This document shows positions 1 to 8,964 of a stretch of DNA of 64,000 nucleotides, in pieces. The stretch lies in assembly GCF_030013595.1 (NCBI RefSeq), contig NZ_CP122768.1; one strand, given 5' to 3'. Source of the DNA: Escherichia coli (lineage in GTDB: Bacteria > Pseudomonadota > Gammaproteobacteria > Enterobacterales > Enterobacteriaceae). Every line of letters starts with the position of its first letter. Positions within the stretch are counted from its first letter, which is position 1. Below the pieces are notes generated by a model. It was not told the origin of the DNA and made no database searches. It saw only the letters and a list, made by a program, of their open reading frames with translations. A program made the translations under genes and the position numbers.

Positions 1-103
1 ACTGTAATGCTCTGTTTGGTTCATTGCACCAGTTTAATGCTGCACTTTCGTTACCTTCAAAAAGATCAATAGCCTTTTGTATAACATCATTTTTTGTCAG
101 CAT
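1..103 (-). CDS. Partial ORF cut by window edge; N-terminal segment resembling DUF2384 (Xre/MbcA/ParS antitoxin C-terminal domain)
   Basis: Minus-strand translation from ATG at 101-103 reads MLTKNDVIQKAIDLFEGNESAALNWCNEPNRALQ, matching my recollection of the DUF2384 core (A..lFGg.e.A..WL..PnpaL). It overlaps the stop of the upstream Xre ORF in another frame and may be its frameshifted continuation. Confidence 0.35.
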   Translation of the reverse strand, partial: MLTKNDVIQKAIDLFEGNESAALNWCNEPNRALQ

Positions 104-419
104 GTTTTACACCTGAAGACGTTTTGAGTGCTTCGATAAGGCTACTTCGCTCTTCCTCTGTCATCCGAGATATGAGTAATGCAAGTTCTGCTGTTGTCTG
201 ATCATCACAAAAAAGGTAGTTCAACGGCACGTTTAACTCTGCTGCCATCCGTCGAAGCGTATCAATATCGGGGACATGGCGTCCTTTCTCATAATGATTC
301 ATACGACTGCTAGCCGATGCAGGATCAAAGCCAACAAGGAGACCCAGAGAGCGCTGTGATAAACCAGCCCTGCATCTCGCTTCCTTAAGTCGTTCTGGTA
401 TCGGATTTTTTTCAGACAC
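87..419 (-). CDS. Xre/Cro-C1 family helix-turn-helix transcriptional regulator (110 aa)
   Basis: ORF track; HTH_3-like segment LKEARCRAGLSQRSLGLLVGFDPASASSRMNHYEKGRHVPDIDTLRRMAAELNVPLNYLF. Does not match K-12 HipB from memory. The last codons run through an A6 tract (90-96) immediately before the stop. Confidence 0.8.
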   Translation of the reverse strand: MSEKNPIPERLKEARCRAGLSQRSLGLLVGFDPASASSRMNHYEKGRHVPDIDTLRRMAAELNVPLNYLFCDDQTTAELALLISRMTEEERSSLIEALKTSSGVKHADKK

Positions 420-503
420 TGATTCATCTTCATTGGCCTCGAATGCTTAGATTGTCTAAGTATCTGCCATTGTTGTATACTTAGCAATCCTAAGTTAATA
501 GCC

Positions 504-1076
504 TTGTTTTGTCATATGAATAGCCGAGTAACCAACCCTGAGTCGTACATATTTTCTGCAATCATCTTAATTGGCAAAGATAACTTCACCAGTAACGAAG
601 TAGCAAAAATTCTTATCGAGCGATTTTCACTTCCGAAAAATTATTTAAAGGCAAAAGCTTTTGCTTATAACCAAATTCAATCCCTGGTTAGAAAAGGATT
701 ATTAAACAAAGTAAGAAAAACAGGCGTGTATCAATATTTATACTCAGTCACAGCAGAATTCAATGTCGCAATAGAGTGCGTGAAATTAATTGAGGCAACC
801 CCAAAGTCTTCCTGTCAACTTGTTTCAAGTGCTACCAACCATGAACACAGAAATGTAAATATCCAAATAAAGTCTCTTATTGAAAAATACAGCAGTGAAT
901 TGGCGAAAGTATCAGGAGCAAAGGAGATTTATGAGGAATTGATAGTTGCTGTGCCGAGCAGGGAAAATGAATTCAGGAAGCTTTCTCTTGAACAAGAGAA
1001 AAAACACATCAAGATAAATGAAAAAATAAATACATTAATTGGAATTATTAATCAATCTCTTGCAGTAAGGCAATGA
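504..1076 (+). CDS. Hypothetical protein (190 aa), possible winged-helix DNA-binding N-terminus; divergent from the Xre gene
   Basis: ORF track; AT-rich codon usage; no recognisable catalytic motif. Alternative start at MNSRV (position 516). Confidence 0.5.
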   Translation: MFCHMNSRVTNPESYIFSAIILIGKDNFTSNEVAKILIERFSLPKNYLKAKAFAYNQIQSLVRKGLLNKVRKTGVYQYLYSVTAEFNVAIECVKLIEATPKSSCQLVSSATNHEHRNVNIQIKSLIEKYSSELAKVSGAKEIYEELIVAVPSRENEFRKLSLEQEKKHIKINEKINTLIGIINQSLAVRQ

Positions 1077-1891: not shown

Positions 1892-4219
1892 TTATTCTGT
1901 TATATTTCTTGGCAACATAGAAAAAGATGCTTGAGACAATCCTGCGCGCTTGAATTTATACCGTATATATGTTGACACTTCCATCTCATGGTTTGACAAC
2001 AAAATCTGACGATCTGAAAGCTCTACCCGTAACAAATCACTCAATGAAGCAATGTTAATCTCATCCATTGACTGTACTGGATCATCAATCAGTATAAATG
2101 GATTAAGCGCATATACCCTATTCAATGTTAGGAAAAATGCCAAACCTAATGATGCGATTTGCCCACTACTCATAGACAGGATTGCATCATGATCAGACTT
2201 CAGCGCAGTATTGAATTTGAGTATATCTCCTTTACCGCTCACTATAAACAAACCTAACCCACGCTGATAATTCTGTATGAGTCTTCCACTATATATATGG
2301 AATAACAGCTCTATATCACCAATAGTCTTTTTCGCATACTGTTTCGCAGTGTCGTCCAATTGCCGCCTAAGATTAACAATTTTTGCTTTTATTTTTTTGC
2401 CAGCTTCAATCCTAGAACTGAGCTTATCAAGCTCCGCTACTTTGGACTTGTACTCTTCGCTTTTGAATTTAGAATGAGCGGCTCTGAGATAGGATTCTTT
2501 ATTTTCAAAATCTGAAACACTAAGTGAGGTTATATCTGATGCGTTCAAGAAAGCCATCTCTAAGCTAGATGACCAGTCTAAAGGGAGCACATCCTTTTCT
2601 GGTTTTTTAGCTGTAGCAATAATCCCTTTTGCTTCATTAAACCGTAACAGCAGAGCTGCATCATCAGCCGTAAAACTAAGATCTTTTGATACGCCATAAT
2701 TTACCAACTGCAAAGCCACTTCACTTATGATTGAGAACTTAGATTCTGCTGCTGTGAGAGCCTTAAAAAGCACACTATCGAAATCTTTTGCAACTAGGTC
2801 ACGCTGCTGTGTGAATGCTGTTATCTGTAAATTTAGTAAGTCCTGTATTGACCTTACTGTCTCCTCCAACTTCTGGGCAGAAGCATCTATTTCAGATCGA
2901 ATTCTTTCCGCATTATTTACAGCGGCTTCCTCTAACGCAGCGTAAGTCGCCCATGATAACCCACAGAATGGACAACCGGAAATTTCCAAATCTTCACATT
3001 CTTGGTGTCGCCGCAGCAACTCTGCATGAGCATTTAGTAAATTTACAAGCTTTGCGTTCTTAGCTGCACTATCAGATTTAATTAGATCCCGTGCCTCAAT
3101 GAGACTATTTACACCAACCAAATCAGCAGCGTTCTTAAGACCGTTTAGGTCTACTTCATTTATCTCTGAAGCTGGCTTTCTGAATATCAAAAGATCATGA
3201 TCCAGCCCAACTAGCGTTGACTCCTTTACTTTCAGACCTTCATATCCAGCTACTTCAGAACCCAACTGAAGAGCCAACTTTATATCGACCTCTCTTTTTA
3301 AAAACGCATCAATATTACTATTAGCCTTTCTCGTCAGAACTTCATCAAAGTTCTGATATATTCTAAATATATTCCGTAATTCACGTATCAGAGTTTCAAT
3401 ATCTGTATCATTTACAGCCGATAGAGGCTGTTCAACATCCCAACCAGGTGACGGCGTCGCGGTACTTAACCGCTTGAAGTCAACGGAATTCTCGGCATCT
3501 TGAAACTGACCACTAAGCTGTTTAATTTTTTCATTCAACTCAGCCTGGAGGTCAGTATGCACTTTCCCCGTATAAGATTCCGTAATAATACTTTCTAACT
3601 CGGAGCAATATGATATCTGTCTCGTCAATTTATCGGTATTAATAAGATGCTCAATGCCTTTTTTTCTTTCAGTGGCATCCGTCGAGTACAGGTATCTATT
3701 CTGCCCTTGCTCAAGATAGTTCAATAAAGAGAAATTTTTTAAGAAGTTCTCTCCTAGAATACTCTCTAGTGCTTTAGAATCAAGACTCTCTCCAAACTTA
3801 TCGGAGTCTATACTGCTTATTTCGTAAAGCTTAAAAATAGAGAAGTTATCAGGTGCATTATTATCCGGGTTCGATAAATCCGCTATGGTAGCAACACGAG
3901 CTAGGAAAATTGACTCTCCTGAATCTTGATTTATGAGCTCAGCTCTAATAGCGATGTCGCCCTCTTTATTTCTATTCCAGTATATGTTTTCTTCAAATTG
4001 TTTTTTGCGCGAACGTTTTGCAACTGTTGCATCATTTGTATTGATAATTCTTTGTATAACGCCAGTAAACAAAAGCTCCAACGCATCAAATATGCTAGTT
4101 TTTCCAAAACCATTGGGGCCATCCAAGGTAATCATGGAGGCAGATCGAAAATCAATAGATGTATTTTCAAATGGCTTGAAATTTTCAATCTTGAGGCTGG
4201 ATATTTTCCATTTCTTCAT
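1892..4219 (-). CDS. SMC/Rad50-like ABC ATPase with coiled-coil and CxxC zinc-hook; candidate Lamassu LmuB-like (ABC-3C ATPase) component
   Basis: 775 aa. Walker A GPNGFGKTS (res 34-42), ABC signature MSSGQ, Walker B ILIDDP, H-loop LSNHE near the C-terminus; long central region with CPFC (res 416-419, nt 2963-2974) at about the midpoint. Start overlaps upstream gene stop by 35 nt. Confidence 0.85.
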   Translation of the reverse strand: MKKWKISSLKIENFKPFENTSIDFRSASMITLDGPNGFGKTSIFDALELLFTGVIQRIINTNDATVAKRSRKKQFEENIYWNRNKEGDIAIRAELINQDSGESIFLARVATIADLSNPDNNAPDNFSIFKLYEISSIDSDKFGESLDSKALESILGENFLKNFSLLNYLEQGQNRYLYSTDATERKKGIEHLINTDKLTRQISYCSELESIITESYTGKVHTDLQAELNEKIKQLSGQFQDAENSVDFKRLSTATPSPGWDVEQPLSAVNDTDIETLIRELRNIFRIYQNFDEVLTRKANSNIDAFLKREVDIKLALQLGSEVAGYEGLKVKESTLVGLDHDLLIFRKPASEINEVDLNGLKNAADLVGVNSLIEARDLIKSDSAAKNAKLVNLLNAHAELLRRHQECEDLEISGCPFCGLSWATYAALEEAAVNNAERIRSEIDASAQKLEETVRSIQDLLNLQITAFTQQRDLVAKDFDSVLFKALTAAESKFSIISEVALQLVNYGVSKDLSFTADDAALLLRFNEAKGIIATAKKPEKDVLPLDWSSSLEMAFLNASDITSLSVSDFENKESYLRAAHSKFKSEEYKSKVAELDKLSSRIEAGKKIKAKIVNLRRQLDDTAKQYAKKTIGDIELLFHIYSGRLIQNYQRGLGLFIVSGKGDILKFNTALKSDHDAILSMSSGQIASLGLAFFLTLNRVYALNPFILIDDPVQSMDEINIASLSDLLRVELSDRQILLSNHEMEVSTYIRYKFKRAGLSQASFSMLPRNITE

Positions 4220-4940
4220 GAATCAGAGTCTCGATTAGTTTGTCTGCTTCAATCCCAGATGCAGAAGCATTAAAGATTTTGAGATGAAGACCGGTCAATT
4301 TTTTCTCGGCGAGTGCTTCCTTTACATAAATATCAAGCGGCTTTAGTGAGCTTTCCTTAACAGGAACCTTTACAAATGGAAGCTTTATAAAAATTCTCGC
4401 CGCGACGCTATATAATGTAGGCGATAGTGGTTGATCTCGATATTCTGCAAACATCCTATCATCGACAACAATCGCTGAAACGCTTTCGAAGTTGTGCCCT
4501 TCTAACAACCTAAGCTCTTCCTCGCTGTAATAAAGAAAATATTTTTTAAAATAATATGGATTCTCTTCAATTCCAAACACCTTACTCTCAATTCCATTAA
4601 AATCAACTCGGTGCCTTAATTTATGCAAAATAATCAGATCGGTATTTTTATCGAAAGCAGGATCAGATTTGAATGTTTCAGGAGCATACAGTAACACTAA
4701 TTTATTCAGCACCTGCGGTGATGGTATATTTTCACACTCAACCACAGCGAGGAATCGCTTCCTATCTCCACTATCCTGACTAAAATAAGTCAAAGACTTA
4801 TAATCAACACCTTCAAGACCAGCTAAAGTTTCTCCTGCCGAATACTCTATGGTGACGTCATCTGCTTTAGAATAGTCGCCTGTATTAAACAAAGTAAACT
4901 CATGTTTCAAGGCAGCCTGTAGAACAATATCTTTAATCAT
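4185..4940 (-). CDS. Middle component (251 aa) of the three-gene ATPase operon; candidate LmuC/kleisin-like protein
   Basis: ORF track; overlaps the upstream gene by 8 nt and the downstream gene by 35 nt (translational coupling); AT-rich; no motif recognised by eye. Confidence 0.75.
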   Translation of the reverse strand: MIKDIVLQAALKHEFTLFNTGDYSKADDVTIEYSAGETLAGLEGVDYKSLTYFSQDSGDRKRFLAVVECENIPSPQVLNKLVLLYAPETFKSDPAFDKNTDLIILHKLRHRVDFNGIESKVFGIEENPYYFKKYFLYYSEEELRLLEGHNFESVSAIVVDDRMFAEYRDQPLSPTLYSVAARIFIKLPFVKVPVKESSLKPLDIYVKEALAEKKLTGLHLKIFNASASGIEADKLIETLIHEEMENIQPQD

Positions 4941-6195
4941 TCAACTTCACCCTCGCCTCTTCCTTTGAAATTATTTTTGCATCAAAGGCTTTAGTTATTT
5001 TGTTACGATCCTTACCCATCAATGAAAACTCATCTTCTACAGCATCCCGCGAAGCTCCGGTAGCTGCACAAAATCGCTCAGCGGGTGAAAAAATATTTGC
5101 TCTAGCTGCGATTAGCCATTGATATTCAACTAAGATATCTATCAGCTCTGGATCGCTTTTCAGCTGCTCTATTAGATCTTCAGCAAACCTATGCTCCCGT
5201 CGAGCATTGTCTGCCGAAATTGCTGTTGGCAAATAAAAATCTCCGGCAGAGCACCTATAGTAAGGAGGCTTTTGCTCACTCAGTGGCGCTTTATCTATAT
5301 CGTAGATCACATCCACATAATCATAAACACTGTTCTCACTCACGACCATTGTGGAAGATCCAAAACATAACGACTTCCACAACCATATAAATGGAGTATC
5401 ACCCAACTCTTTAATCTGATCGTAAACATTTGCAACTTTTTGAATAACAGTTCTATCTGCTGTTTTTTCCATTGTATTGGTATACCCATACAATGATTTA
5501 CAAACGGCCATCCTGGCTTGGAACATTTTGTATACAATGTCGTCTTCATGGGTAGCGGTGAGGCTTAATAACTCTACAATCTTCTCACTTTTTAAAGTTT
5601 GAGTAAACGCGGCTTGTGCGGCGCTCATTAACCCATCCTGATTGCACGCGTGTATATATATTACTTGAGCGGCAATATGACTCTGCAAAGCCTCGAACTT
5701 CAAATTCACTAAAAAATCACTGCAAGGTAACTCTTCGGAAACCAGGTACTTCTCAATTTTTGATTTCGTTTTTTCTTCAACATCTTGGAGATAGCAGTAA
5801 GGCAGTCCATCGTAAGTATAAAATTTAACGACATTCCCATTGCTGCCAACAAAATCAGAAGCATCATCAAGGCGCGCAGATGTATGAAAATATCTTTTGG
5901 TAGTCTTATCACACAACATATATGTAGATGCAGCTTTTTCGAGAGCCTCCCTATAGGCAGCTCTTTTATCATCTGCTAGCGCTTTTACCTGATGCGTAGA
6001 AACTGCAACTCCATTTTCAATTATCGAAAAATCATCAATGCTGTCGATTTGCAACTCAAACGACATTTTATTGAGCACACATTCTATGGAATGATAAAGC
6101 GCTAAATGCCCTTGATAAATAAACCCACTCCATGTAGGTGCAGCTGTATGAGGATGGGAGGAAGCCGATTTCGACATGCAATATGTCCTAGGCAA
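4933..6195 (-). CDS. Putative effector (420 aa) of the three-gene operon; candidate LmuA-like protein with possible N-terminal PD-(D/E)xK-type nuclease fold
   Basis: First gene of the minus-strand operon. N-terminal segment GFIYQGHLALYH...IDSIDDFSIIENGVAVSTHQVK contains a D...D...(E/Q)xK-like arrangement; assignment is by eye only. Alternative start at M7 (position 6177). Confidence 0.75.
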   Translation of the reverse strand: MPRTYCMSKSASSHPHTAAPTWSGFIYQGHLALYHSIECVLNKMSFELQIDSIDDFSIIENGVAVSTHQVKALADDKRAAYREALEKAASTYMLCDKTTKRYFHTSARLDDASDFVGSNGNVVKFYTYDGLPYCYLQDVEEKTKSKIEKYLVSEELPCSDFLVNLKFEALQSHIAAQVIYIHACNQDGLMSAAQAAFTQTLKSEKIVELLSLTATHEDDIVYKMFQARMAVCKSLYGYTNTMEKTADRTVIQKVANVYDQIKELGDTPFIWLWKSLCFGSSTMVVSENSVYDYVDVIYDIDKAPLSEQKPPYYRCSAGDFYLPTAISADNARREHRFAEDLIEQLKSDPELIDILVEYQWLIAARANIFSPAERFCAATGASRDAVEDEFSLMGKDRNKITKAFDAKIISKEEARVKLND

Positions 6196-6524
6196 ATTTA
6201 GAGACAGAGTCAGAAGTAACCTTCTAACTCAGTAGAATATGATCTTAATTTCTGTATCCGATGTTTATATTTTTTGTTGAACGCGCCCAGCGGCGTTATG
6301 AAAACTTCCTTGATTGTCATTTTTATGCATTCTCTTGATCGATAGGAATTTAAATCCCAAAAAGATTAAAAAAACACCCAAAAACGGATGTTTATTCGAC
6401 ACTGCCTGCGTGCCATGAGTGCACCGCCATCAATTAAATGGATCTTATCGAGTGATACTGTATATCACTGATGGTTTTTTACTCCATTCCCCTGAAAATG
6501 GACGCAACTTCCCCGATGCGGCTC

Positions 6525-7712
6525 TCAGCCGCACACCCGCTGTTGCGCCAGTGGCTCATGCATCAGGACCAGCTCTGTCAGACGGTAGCCCCGCTTCAGC
6601 CCCGTAAAACGCATCTGACATCCGCACAGGATGCACTTTAGCGGGTCAACCTTCAGTAACCGCTGATACATCCCTCTCCACCTGATTTGCATCGCCGTCT
6701 TTCTCACCGTCTCCGTTATGACGTACACAACATCTTCCAGTAACCGGCGCTTTACCGGACTCAGGAAACCGTAGTACCTCACCATACGGAACCCCTTATC
6801 CGCCACATGCCAGGAGAACCTTTCCATAAACTCATCACCACTCATCACCAGGTATTCTTCCCGTTTTGTCCGGTGACTGTTGTAACGCAGACCAATTTCA
6901 TCCTGACCAGCATAGTGCTCCAGACGGCTCATCGGCACCGGCGGTTTTTTCAGGTAAGAGCCGAAGTACACCGCCACATGTGTGGCGTTATCCATCACCC
7001 GGGATACGTTGACATTCCAGCCCCGCCGGTAATGACTGTCCAGGAAGCGATTCCAGTCCCGTCTGCTGCTTCCTTCAACTGCCAGCGCATCCGGTATCAC
7101 CAGCTCCGGGTATTTTCGTGACAGTAACCACGTTATCCTGTAACGCCACATGCTCATCACCTTACGGGCGTAAAAATGAAGGTTTTTCCAGGTGTGGTCT
7201 GGTGTCACGCCGCCGGCCGTTGTCGACAGGTGAATGTGCGGATGCCACTGCTGGTCACGTCCCCATGTGTGGATGACCGTGAATATCCCCGGCACCACAT
7301 CTGCCTGGCGGCAGATTTCCTGTATCACATCCGCAGCAATGCGGCTCATCTCTGCCAGTAACCACCGGTTGTGGAACACCAGGGACCAGTACTGGCAGGG
7401 AAGTGTGAACACAATATGCTGCCACGGACAGTCGGGAACCAGACTCAGCAGATACTGTATCCACTGTGCGCCAGCCTTCACTCCGCAGTGCGGGCAGGAG
7501 CGACTTTTACACCGGAAGCAGACCTTTTTTGTGTGGCAACAGTCCGGAGATGAACAGCACCACTGTGTGTACCCCATCAGCGTGGTTCCGCACGCCATGA
7601 TTTTTGTCACCGACTCAATGACTACCGGACGCACTGAACCTTCCGGTTGTTTCTCCAGCCAGTTAAGCCAGCGGTTTCCCTGCTGAAAAATGTCGGCAAA
7701 ACGGGGAAGCAT
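6525..7712 (-). CDS. tnpA: IS91-family transposase TnpA
   Basis: N-terminal Cys-rich zinc-binding region (CCSSPDCCH...CFRCKSRSCPHCG), HUH motif HPHIH, conserved Tyr-containing C-terminal region. Likely start at MLPRF (7712), sharing one nucleotide with the orf121 stop; ORF track extends to 7757. Confidence 0.85.
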   Translation of the reverse strand: MLPRFADIFQQGNRWLNWLEKQPEGSVRPVVIESVTKIMACGTTLMGYTQWCCSSPDCCHTKKVCFRCKSRSCPHCGVKAGAQWIQYLLSLVPDCPWQHIVFTLPCQYWSLVFHNRWLLAEMSRIAADVIQEICRQADVVPGIFTVIHTWGRDQQWHPHIHLSTTAGGVTPDHTWKNLHFYARKVMSMWRYRITWLLSRKYPELVIPDALAVEGSSRRDWNRFLDSHYRRGWNVNVSRVMDNATHVAVYFGSYLKKPPVPMSRLEHYAGQDEIGLRYNSHRTKREEYLVMSGDEFMERFSWHVADKGFRMVRYYGFLSPVKRRLLEDVVYVITETVRKTAMQIRWRGMYQRLLKVDPLKCILCGCQMRFTGLKRGYRLTELVLMHEPLAQQRVCG

Positions 7713-8077
7713 CAGAAGGGCGGGGGGACTCCGTCCGGCCAGTGAACCGTGCCACACTCCGGGCAGTACATGCCGCCGGCGCTGATACCGGCAAGAATGG
7801 TCGCAAACTCCCGCTCCGTGCAGCGGGCTATTTCAGGATACCCTTCGTCATCGACACGAACAAACCAGAAGACCAGCTTTTTGTTTCCGGCATCCACAAA
7901 GAAGGGAATATTCAGGTCTGCGCAGCACTCAACGGCATCGTCAAAATTATCAAAGCGCAGAGCTTCTGCGTCTTCTTCGTCAAAGAAGTCATCGTCGTGA
8001 AGCTTCACGACATAGCGGGGAAGTTTGCTTCTTTGAGGGGCAGGTTTTCGTTTACGGGGTTTAGCTGAACGGGACAT
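7712..8077 (-). CDS. IS91 accessory ORF (ORF121-like, 121 aa)
   Basis: 121-aa ORF immediately upstream of and overlapping tnpA, as in IS91. Confidence 0.65.
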   Translation of the reverse strand: MSRSAKPRKRKPAPQRSKLPRYVVKLHDDDFFDEEDAEALRFDNFDDAVECCADLNIPFFVDAGNKKLVFWFVRVDDEGYPEIARCTEREFATILAGISAGGMYCPECGTVHWPDGVPPPF

Positions 8078-8964
8078 ATAACTACCTGAAAGACAATGAT
8101 ATTGTCTGTTTTTATAACGGTAATTTCAGGCCATGACAAGCCGCAGCCGCCAAGCTGCCTACTCGAGCGATATCGCTATGATATCACCGAATGTAACATA
8201 CCTGTAGGGTCAAAAAAAGGGTCAGCCAAACATTCTGGAGTGTTCGGTATCGTTGGTACCATTCATGCAAAATGGACTTAAATCTTAAGAAAGACACTCC
8301 ATTAGCTTAAGCTTCCCTACCTTACCCTACCAATACACCTAGCCAGCCGTGAGAACGCTACCGCCATCAGAGGCATTAGTCCCGATTAAGTATCGATGCA
8401 ACCAAATGTTACCAAAATTCATGAATTGTTCAAGAAGGCAATCAGATAATCCCTAAAGCTTTATGGGCCTGGTTATGCGATTACATTGGGAAATGGTTCA
8501 TGAACAGAAGTAGAGCAAGCTGCCAAGAAATGCTCATAAGAGGCGAATTTCCTGTTAGTTCATGAAGCCACCTGGAAGTGAATTCATCTTTCTATTAAAA
8601 ATATTCATTTAAAGCAAAGAGATATGTCATCTGTGGTTTATGAACTGGATTCTCGCTCAACATAAGTTAAATGTGGTGGGTTTGTTCTTAAGTTCATGTG
8701 TTCCGCTCTTTCAGTAGCTTAACTGATGAATCAGTCAGCAGCTCTTGCCGTGCAAGCTACGCGGCGGTTCGTACCAGATTGGCCACCTCCATCTCCTGGT
8801 TCGCTTTCCCCTCCCCCCGGTAAACCTCACCCAACGTTAATTAATGATGTCAGTATGTGGGCGCTATCCTTGTATGTAAAATCCACTGACGATTATGCCC
8901 ATCTGTGAAAAAAACTCACAATGCCATTCGATGCATCTCCATACTGAACGAGGCGTTATCGTCT

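What the first reader, a model, noticed from the sequence alone, without database searches (positions are those of the whole stretch)
2963..2974. Central CPFC zinc-hook-like motif in the 775-aa ATPase
A CxxC motif (CPFC, residues 416-419) sits near the midpoint of the protein between the N-terminal Walker A half and the C-terminal signature/Walker B half. This is where Rad50/SbcC-type zinc hooks sit at the apex of the coiled coil, implying hook-mediated dimerisation or DNA bridging.
Basis: seen in the sequence. Interest (0 to 1): 0.5.

Follow-up and report, generated by a model that had tools for sequence, protein, structure and literature searches.

The report
Zinc hook of a Lamassu ATPase
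The CPFC motif is real and strictly conserved, and it is the expected Rad50/SbcC-type zinc hook at the coiled-coil tip of LmuB, the SMC-like ATPase of a "long" Lamassu anti-phage system in E. coli; this hallmark is already described for the family, so the finding is correct but ordinary.

Summary
Window 2963-2974 (- strand) encodes C416-P-F-C419 of a 775-aa ORF (1892-4219). The ORF is LmuB, the last gene of a lmuA (Cap4 nuclease + CTD1), lmuC (MComp1), lmuB Lamassu / ABC-3C operon.

- **Conservation.** Both cysteines are invariant in 121/121 close homologues (34-84% identity). They are also invariant in 144/144 full-length sequences from 50%-identity clusters (20-48% identity, median 26%). Each of those proteins has exactly one central CxxC, at relative position 0.532±0.007. 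The consensus is CPxCG, the same pentapeptide as E. coli SbcC (CPLCG).
- **Structure.** AlphaFold2 (pLDDT 84) puts the motif in a 16-residue loop between two long helices (370-406 and 423-478). The loop lies midway between the two ATPase head halves, with arms of 234 and 228 aa. The best solved-structure match is Rad50.
- **In-trans site.** No third or fourth conserved ligand exists in cis, and LmuA and LmuC have no CxxC. A 2+2 site across two LmuB protomers is the simplest reading.
- **Literature.** Published work already says long LmuB (~800 aa, Walker B hhhhDD) always carries one CxxC hook. In short LmuB the hooks are juxtaposed in cryo-EM dimers and are needed for defence.

Dimerisation and zinc binding were not shown here. 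A linker-fused hook-dimer model was inconclusive. Low interest; already known.

The parts
2963..2974 (-). CPFC (C416-C419), the CxxC of the zinc hook. With G420 (2960-2962) it forms the CPxCG consensus.
   Evidence: Translation. Both Cys invariant in 121/121 and 144/144 homologues. P417 is conserved in 119/144 and G420 in 141/144.
2954..3001 (-). Hook loop, residues 407-422: the non-helical turn that carries CPFC
   Evidence: DSSP of the AF2 model. pLDDT is 63-74 here, lower than in the flanking helices, as expected for a monomer modelled without partner or metal.
3002..3112 (-). Ascending hook-proximal helix, residues 370-406. Contains L401, invariant among close homologues.
   Evidence: The 3.5-residue hydrophobic periodicity is among the strongest of the arms across residues ~380-505, which span the hook.
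2786..2953 (-). Descending hook-proximal helix, residues 423-478. It starts at W423, which is invariant in close homologues and W/Y/F in 139/144 distant ones.
1892..4219 (-). lmuB: a 775-aa SMC/Rad50-like ABC ATPase of a long-type Lamassu system. Walker A is at 4097-4120, the signature motif at 2159-2170 and Walker B (FILIDD) at 2081-2098.
   Evidence: PADLOC LmuB model PDLC03859, E = 7e-69. Pfam AAA_23, AAA_15 and SMC_N. Foldseek best hit is Rad50 7zr1_D at 5e-14, with Salmonella LmuB 9hqx_f at 1.4e-8. Motif coordinates.
4185..4940 (-). lmuC: 251-aa ABC-3C middle component 1
   Evidence: PADLOC LmuC, E = 2.8e-14. Pfam MComp1 PF20289, E = 2.5e-9. RefSeq name. It has one Cys and no CxxC.
4933..6195 (-). 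lmuA: effector with an N-terminal Cap4-type nuclease and an ABC-3C CTD1. RefSeq starts the gene at 6177 (414 aa).
   Evidence: PADLOC LmuA, E = 7e-21. Pfam CTD1, E = 3e-25, and Cap4_nuclease, E = 8e-5. No CxxC.

Best explanation
CPFC(G) is the zinc hook of LmuB, the SMC/Rad50-like sensor ATPase of a long-type Lamassu (ABC-3C) defence operon, lmuA(Cap4-CTD1)-lmuC(MC1)-lmuB.

Proposed mechanism:
1. Each LmuB chain folds back on itself. Its N- and C-terminal halves form one ABC head, and the ~230-residue arms form an antiparallel coiled coil.
2. The CxxC sits at the turn of that coiled coil.
3. Two protomers each contribute two cysteines to one tetrahedral Zn2+ site. This locks LmuB into the head-distal homodimer that the complex needs.
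4. By analogy with solved short Lamassu complexes, the LmuB2 scaffold holds LmuA inactive. DNA ends or aberrant DNA structures are then sensed, and ATP-driven head movements release LmuA.
5. Released LmuA oligomerises into an active Cap4 nuclease and aborts the infection.

Shown here: the motif, its invariance, its helix-loop-helix midpoint location, and the family assignment.
Inferred: zinc binding, dimerisation and the downstream activation steps.
For: - **Family.** PADLOC LmuB/LmuC/LmuA hits on three consecutive, overlapping genes. Pfam CTD1 + Cap4 and MComp1. RefSeq 'ABC-three component system' names for the neighbours.
- **Long clade.** The protein is 775 aa, and its Walker B hhhhDD has D712 and D713 invariant. 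This matches the published definition: ~800 aa, hhhhDD, always one CxxC (PMC12663957).
- **Conservation.** C416 and C419 invariant in 121/121 and 144/144 sequences. Each of the 143 distant homologues has exactly one central CxxC, at 0.532±0.007 of its length. The consensus is CPxCG.
- **Position.** AF2 model with pLDDT 84 shows helix 370-406, loop 407-422, helix 423-478. Inter-head arms are 234 and 228 aa.
- **Fold.** Rad50 is the best PDB match at 5e-14, and solved LmuB chains are also hit.
- **No ligands in cis.** C408 and H405 are not conserved, and LmuA and LmuC lack CxxC. A 2+2 site between two LmuB chains is the simplest way to complete the coordination.
- **Same motif in SbcC.** E. coli SbcC has CPLCG at 0.483 of its length.
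- **Literature on relatives.** Hooks are juxtaposed in cryo-EM LmuB dimers, and a hook mutant loses phage defence (10.1101/2025.03.14.643221). BcLmuB has a CQYC hook (10.1101/2025.06.23.660979). CPxCG was noted in a review (PMC10586767).
Against: - No direct evidence for zinc or dimerisation in this protein or in any long LmuB. All solved structures are of short LmuB, and even there the zinc density was not resolved.
- My linker-fused hook-dimer AF2 model was low confidence: pLDDT 58.9, pTM 0.48, with the hook loops no better than in the monomer.
- Arm-arm covariation gave no antiparallel signal (Meff 185, dominated by gap artefacts).
- The hook region shows no profile-level homology to SbcC or to PDB hooks. 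Only the heads align.
- Some Lamassu systems, such as V. cholerae DdmC, work without a hook (PMC12663957), so the hook is not universally indispensable.
- I could not read model coordinates, so the apex position rests on secondary structure and arm symmetry, not on measured 3D distances.
Confidence: 0.85

Rival explanations
1. The CxxC is conserved because it forms a docking or mixed metal site with LmuA-CTD1 or LmuC, not a LmuB-LmuB hook. In short Lamassu, LmuA-CTD and LmuC do sit at the hook region.
For: In Salmonella and V. cholerae complexes, LmuC and LmuA-CTD contact the hook-proximal coiled coil (PMC12663957). W423 and L401 are conserved next to the motif.
Against: LmuA and LmuC of this operon have no CxxC or C/H-xx-C/H pair to complete a metal site. 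For long Lamassu, published AF3 complexes place LmuA and LmuC at the heads, as in SbcD-SbcC, not at the hook.
Confidence: 0.07
2. The hooks act between complexes, as in Rad50-type tethering or bridging of two DNA-bound LmuB assemblies, rather than dimerising LmuB within one complex.
For: This is a debated mode for Rad50 hooks (background knowledge). In long Lamassu the apex is predicted to be free of LmuA and LmuC, so it would be available.
Against: Every solved Lamassu complex has a single LmuB2 dimer joined at the hook or apex. Nothing in the papers read reports DNA bridging. The arms are short (~230 aa) compared with SbcC or Rad50.
Confidence: 0.05
3. The CxxC is an intramolecular feature, either a redox-active disulfide or a small in-cis zinc knuckle, or it is a vestigial motif inherited from SbcC with no present role.
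For: CxxC motifs also occur in thiol-disulfide oxidoreductases and zinc knuckles (background knowledge). C408 lies nearby in this particular protein.
Against: C408 and H405 are not conserved, so no in-cis four-ligand site exists across the family. There is no thioredoxin-like fold; the motif lies in a helix-loop-helix turn. Invariance in 144/144 sequences at 20-48% identity, inside otherwise fast-evolving arms (mean column entropy ~1.8 bits in the arms against zero at the two Cys), argues against a relic. Chance is excluded.
Confidence: 0.03

Closest known systems
Long-type Lamassu LmuB (ABC-3C coiled-coil ATPase; Haudiquet et al., PNAS 2025, PMC12663957; Krishnan et al. 2020 as cited there)
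   Same: About 800 aa, Walker B hhhhDD, a single central CxxC, a longer LmuC and LmuA-CTD, and a Cap4 effector. The operon order lmuA-lmuC-lmuB also matches. All of these were verified here.
   Different: Nothing substantive. This E. coli copy is simply uncharacterised. No long LmuB has a solved structure or a hook mutant, and the only validated long system cited is B. cereus B4077, which has a different effector.
Short Lamassu LmuB with a zinc hook: Salmonella enterica LmuACB (PDB 9hqx) and Bacillus cellulasensis LmuAB (CQYC; probably PDB 9ux7, which the search lists only as an 'LmuAB-DNA complex')
   Same: SMC-like head, coiled coil and CxxC apex. Hooks of the two protomers are juxtaposed, and the hook is required for defence in Salmonella. 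Foldseek detects both entries (1.4e-8 and 1e-6).
   Different: They are about 560-630 residues with shorter arms and a Walker B of type D[Q/S/T/E]. LmuA and LmuC dock at the hook region. Sequence similarity is too low for phmmer or a profile search to find them.
SbcC/Rad50 zinc hook (E. coli SbcC C506-PLC-G)
   Same: The same CPxCG pentapeptide at the midpoint of an antiparallel coiled coil that joins the two halves of an ABC head. Rad50 is the best structural match to the model. The literature places long LmuB closest to SbcC.
   Different: SbcC is 1048 aa with longer arms, a canonical DE Walker B and the SbcD nuclease as partner. Profile alignment matches only the C-terminal head, not the hook region. 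LmuB adds a conserved aromatic residue four positions after the second Cys (CPxCGxxW).
V. cholerae DdmC (LmuB of DdmABC)
   Same: A Lamassu SMC-like ATPase with a Cap4 LmuA partner.
   Different: It is reported to have lost the CxxC hook and to dimerise by other apex contacts (PMC12663957). It is therefore a poor reference for this motif.

Membership tests
Lamassu / ABC-3C system (LmuA-LmuC-LmuB) | Three adjacent co-oriented genes matching the LmuA, LmuC and LmuB models | tested here: met
   PADLOC LmuB 7e-69, LmuC 2.8e-14, LmuA 7e-21. Pfam CTD1 + Cap4_nuclease and MComp1. The genes overlap by 8 and 35 nt.
Lamassu / ABC-3C system (LmuA-LmuC-LmuB) | LmuB is an SMC/Rad50-like ABC ATPase whose head halves are separated by a coiled coil | tested here: met
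   Walker A, Q-loop, signature, Walker B and H-loop are all invariant. The AF2 model shows helical arms across 182-647. Foldseek hits Rad50, SMC and LmuB chains.
Lamassu / ABC-3C system (LmuA-LmuC-LmuB) | Confers anti-phage or anti-plasmid defence | not testable with these tools
   This needs plaque or plasmid-stability assays.
Long-type LmuB clade | Length about 800 aa and Walker B hhhhDD (not D[Q/S/T/E]) | tested here: met
   775 aa with FILIDD. D712 and D713 are invariant in 119 and 144 sequences. Definition from PMC12663957.
Long-type LmuB clade | Exactly one central CxxC | tested here: met
   One CxxC in the query. One central CxxC in each of 143/143 distant full-length homologues.
Rad50/SbcC-type zinc hook | Conserved CxxC (typically CPxCG) at the turn of an antiparallel coiled-coil hairpin, midway between the head halves | tested here: met
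   CPFCG, with family consensus CPxCG. Helix 370-406, loop, helix 423-478. Arms of 234 and 228 aa. Caveat: model coordinates could not be inspected, so the 3D apex is inferred from secondary structure and symmetry.
Rad50/SbcC-type zinc hook | Hook-mediated homodimerisation | tested here: inconclusive
   A linker-fused double hook fragment modelled with AF2 gave pLDDT 58.9 and pTM 0.48, with no gain at the hook loops. Homologous short LmuB dimers do show juxtaposed hooks.
Rad50/SbcC-type zinc hook | One Zn2+ coordinated by four Cys, two from each protomer | not testable with these tools
   This needs metal analysis or a high-resolution structure. Indirect support: there is no conserved third or fourth ligand in cis and no CxxC in LmuA or LmuC.
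Rad50/SbcC-type zinc hook | Detectable sequence homology of the hook region to SbcC/Rad50 hooks | tested here: not met
   hhalign of A1 against E. coli SbcC aligns only residues 676-751 of the head. phmmer of the hook fragment against the PDB finds no hook. The resemblance is at the level of motif and architecture only.

The most novel reading that the evidence does not exclude
In long Lamassu the LmuA and LmuC partners are predicted to sit at the heads, which would leave the hook apex free. The invariant CPxCGxxW hook of this clade might then do more than hold one dimer together. It could pair hooks between complexes, Rad50-style, to tether two DNA ends. Or it could act as a zinc- or redox-sensitive switch that controls release of the Cap4 effector.
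Probability: 0.08. Interest if true: 0.45.

Novelty: already known. Interest (0 to 1): 0.12.

Why it matters
The result confirms that this E. coli island carries a complete long-type Lamassu defence system with an intact sensor: all ATPase motifs and the hook are present. That is useful for annotation, because RefSeq calls the protein only 'AAA family ATPase'.

It adds no new biology. The CxxC hook is a published hallmark of LmuB, and specifically of the long clade. The open point is experimental: no long LmuB has a solved structure or a hook mutant. This rare E. coli system (16 of 5,426 complete genomes) could serve as a convenient model for that work.

Tried and rejected
1. **Sequence searches of the PDB.** I used the full protein, the 119-sequence profile and the 86-aa hook fragment. 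Only Rad50/SMC head matches came back, with no LmuB chain and no hook. Fold comparison was needed to reach the LmuB structures.
2. **Profile-profile alignment with E. coli SbcC.** Only the C-terminal head aligns, so homology of the hook cannot be claimed at sequence level.
3. **Linker-fused double hook fragment, 2 x residues 376-452 joined by a (GGGGS)8 linker, with a 28-row alignment, modelled by AF2.** Confidence was low (pLDDT 58.9, pTM 0.48). The result is inconclusive, neither supporting nor refuting dimerisation.
4. **Mean-field DCA on the coiled-coil arms, to detect antiparallel pairing centred on the CxxC.** Meff was only 185, the top pairs were indel artefacts, and no anti-diagonal peak appeared near i+j = 835. 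Uninformative.
5. **Looking for this exact system in the supplement of PMC12663957.** No supplementary files are held.
6. **Rejected readings.** Chance motif. In-cis zinc knuckle using C408 or H405, because neither is conserved. A mixed site with LmuA or LmuC, because neither has a CxxC. The antisense 82-aa ORF at 2815-3063 (+), listed, overlaps the site. I did not test it and treat it as a by-product of the lmuB frame.

Full report
**Observation.** The ORF at window 1892-4219 on the - strand encodes 775 aa. Window 2963-2974 read on the - strand is TGTCCATTCTGT, which is CPFC, residues 416-419. The protein has only four cysteines (205, 408, 416, 419). The motif lies at 0.537 of the length, between Walker A (GPNGFGKT, 34-41) and the signature (SSGQ, 684-687) plus Walker B (FILIDD, 708-713). 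If four Cys are placed at random in 775 positions, a CxxC arises in 1.5% of trials, and one within ±40 residues of the midpoint in 0.16%.

**What the gene is.** PADLOC models identify three consecutive, overlapping - strand genes. They are LmuA (4933-6195, E = 7e-21), LmuC (4185-4940, E = 2.8e-14) and LmuB (1892-4219, E = 7e-69).
- Pfam finds AAA_23, AAA_15 and SMC_N in LmuB.
- Pfam finds a Cap4 nuclease N-terminus plus ABC-3C CTD1 in LmuA.
- Pfam finds ABC-3C Middle Component 1 in LmuC.
- RefSeq names the neighbours 'ABC-three component system protein' and 'middle component 1', but names LmuB only 'AAA family ATPase'.

The window is E. coli. An identical protein is in RefSeq. The gene is present in 16 of 5,426 complete E. 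coli genomes, always on the chromosome.

**Conservation.** In 120 database homologues (34-84% identity), C416, C419, W423 and L401 are invariant in 121/121 sequences. P417 is present in 112/121 and G420 in 90/121.

A profile search of 1.84 billion cluster representatives found 5,350 relatives. Among the 143 full-length proteins in the top 150 (20-48% identity to the query, median 26%):
- both Cys are invariant (144/144 with the query), G420 is present in 141/144 and P417 in 119/144;
- every protein has exactly one central CxxC, at relative position 0.532±0.007;
- the commonest pentapeptides are CPLCG (59), CPFCG (21) and CPYCG (16).

The surrounding coiled-coil arms are the least conserved part of the protein, with mean column entropy about 1.8 bits against 0.6-1.1 in the heads. 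The invariance of the two Cys therefore reflects selection on the motif itself. C408 and H405 are not conserved, so the family has no third or fourth ligand in cis.

**Structure.** AlphaFold2 with the 119-sequence alignment gave mean pLDDT 84.1 and pTM 0.54.
- The N-terminal head is roughly 1-180 and the C-terminal head roughly 648-770.
- Between them is a mostly helical region, with helix 370-406, a loop at 407-422 carrying CPFC, and helix 423-478.
- The arms from head exit to the motif are 234 aa (182-415) and 228 aa (420-647). The motif is thus at the midpoint of the inter-head region, as required for the apex of an antiparallel coiled coil.
- Hydrophobic periodicity at 3.5-3.6 residues is among the strongest of the arms across residues ~380-505, which span the hook.

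Foldseek against the PDB gives Rad50 (7zr1_D, E = 5e-14) as the best match. SMC-family chains follow, then solved Lamassu chains: Salmonella LmuB 9hqx_f at 1.4e-8 and an LmuAB-DNA complex, 9ux7_A, at 1e-6. I could not read model coordinates, so the apex position is inferred from secondary structure and symmetry rather than measured.

**Comparison with known hooks.** E. coli SbcC carries CPLCG at C506-C509, at 0.483 of its length. This is the same pentapeptide consensus as the LmuB family. Homology of the hook region is not detectable by sequence. hhalign of the LmuB profile against SbcC aligns only the C-terminal head, and the hook fragment finds nothing relevant in the PDB. The resemblance is in motif and architecture.

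**Literature.**
- The Salmonella LmuACB cryo-EM study shows the two hooks closely juxtaposed. Zinc was not resolved. Phage protection required the LmuB zinc hook (10.1101/2025.03.14.643221).
- B. cellulasensis LmuB has a canonical hook, 285-CQYC-288, at the most head-distal point of the dimer (10.1101/2025.06.23.660979).
- Haudiquet et al. divide LmuB into short (~600 aa; Walker B hhhhD[Q/S/T/E]; zero, one or two CxxC) and long (~800 aa; Walker B hhhhDD; consistently one CxxC). They place long LmuB closest to SbcC. Their AF3 models put long LmuA and LmuC at the LmuB heads, as in SbcD-SbcC (PMC12663957; preprint version). They also report that V. cholerae DdmC has lost the hook.

The protein here meets every long-clade criterion: 775 aa, FILIDD with invariant DD, a single CxxC, a 251-aa LmuC and a Cap4 effector.

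**Mechanism.** The best-supported reading has the following steps.
1. Each LmuB folds into one ABC head and an antiparallel coiled coil whose turn carries C416 and C419.
2. Two protomers supply 2+2 cysteines to one Zn2+, forming the head-distal dimer interface.
3. By analogy with the solved short systems, LmuB2 with LmuC keeps LmuA inactive until DNA ends or aberrant DNA structures are sensed.
4. ATP-dependent head movements then release LmuA, which oligomerises into an active Cap4 nuclease and aborts infection.

Shown here: motif, invariance, position and family. Inferred: zinc binding, dimerisation and activation. The 2+2 in-trans site is favoured because no conserved cis ligands exist and LmuA and LmuC have no CxxC.

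**Attempts that did not help.** A linker-fused double hook fragment modelled with AF2 was low confidence (pLDDT 58.9, pTM 0.48). Mean-field DCA on the arms was dominated by indel artefacts at Meff 185 and showed no anti-diagonal signal. Neither result bears on the conclusion.

**Verdict.** The feature is a documented hallmark of LmuB, and specifically of the long Lamassu clade. This is an ordinary, already-known feature in an uncharacterised but typical family member. Interest is low. The residual value is better annotation, and the fact that long-clade hooks remain experimentally untested.

Noticed in passing
window ~6345-8100 (IS91-family transposase ORF 6525-7757, - strand; 121-aa ORF 7712-8077, - strand): An IS91-family transposase (NCBIfam NF033538, E = 1.7e-85) lies about 150 bp upstream of the lmuA start. 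Other E. coli carriers of the island lack it, and their sequence diverges from the window at about 6345. The insertion could have displaced or replaced the operon's native promoter.
   Followed up: partly
window 2081-2098 (- strand; LmuB residues 708-713): Walker B is FILIDD followed by P, with DD where the canonical motif has DE. D712, D713 and P714 are invariant in all homologues. This matches the published 'long Lamassu' signature. Its effect on ATP hydrolysis is untested.
   Followed up: partly
window 2951-2953 and 3017-3019 (- strand; W423 and L401): The hook has a family-specific extension. An aromatic residue sits four positions after the second Cys (CPxCGxxW). It is W in 121/121 close homologues, and W, Y or F in 139/144 distant ones. 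L401 is also invariant in close homologues. This extension is not part of the SbcC hook (CPLCGSTSH).
   Followed up: partly
window ~3401-3511 (- strand; LmuB residues 237-273): A ~37-residue non-helical stretch interrupts the N-terminal coiled-coil arm in the AF2 model. It contains the invariant pair W260-D261. It may be an elbow or joint, or a partner-docking element. I did not investigate it.
   Followed up: no
window 4185-4219 and 4933-4940: lmuC overlaps lmuB by 35 nt and lmuA overlaps lmuC by 8 nt. This suggests translational coupling of the three subunits.
   Followed up: no
window 4933-6195 (- strand; LmuA): The nuclease module ahead of CTD1 is short (about residues 1-122). It matches Pfam Cap4_nuclease only over residues 21-80, at E = 8e-5. 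A candidate D...QxK-type catalytic stretch, 'DSIDDFSII...THQVK', lies around residues ~50-71. I did not check whether this truncated-looking domain is a complete nuclease.
   Followed up: no
window 87-1076; L001 1-7076: Downstream of lmuB lie an RstR-like HTH repressor (87-419, - strand; NCBIfam E = 2.3e-10) and a 190-aa ORF with no family match (504-1076, + strand). In other strains the island continues with an Xre-type antitoxin, a 788-aa hypothetical protein, site-specific integrase genes and hipA. This suggests a small integrative defence island. The island is rare in E. coli: lmuB is in 16 of 5,426 complete genomes.
   Followed up: partly
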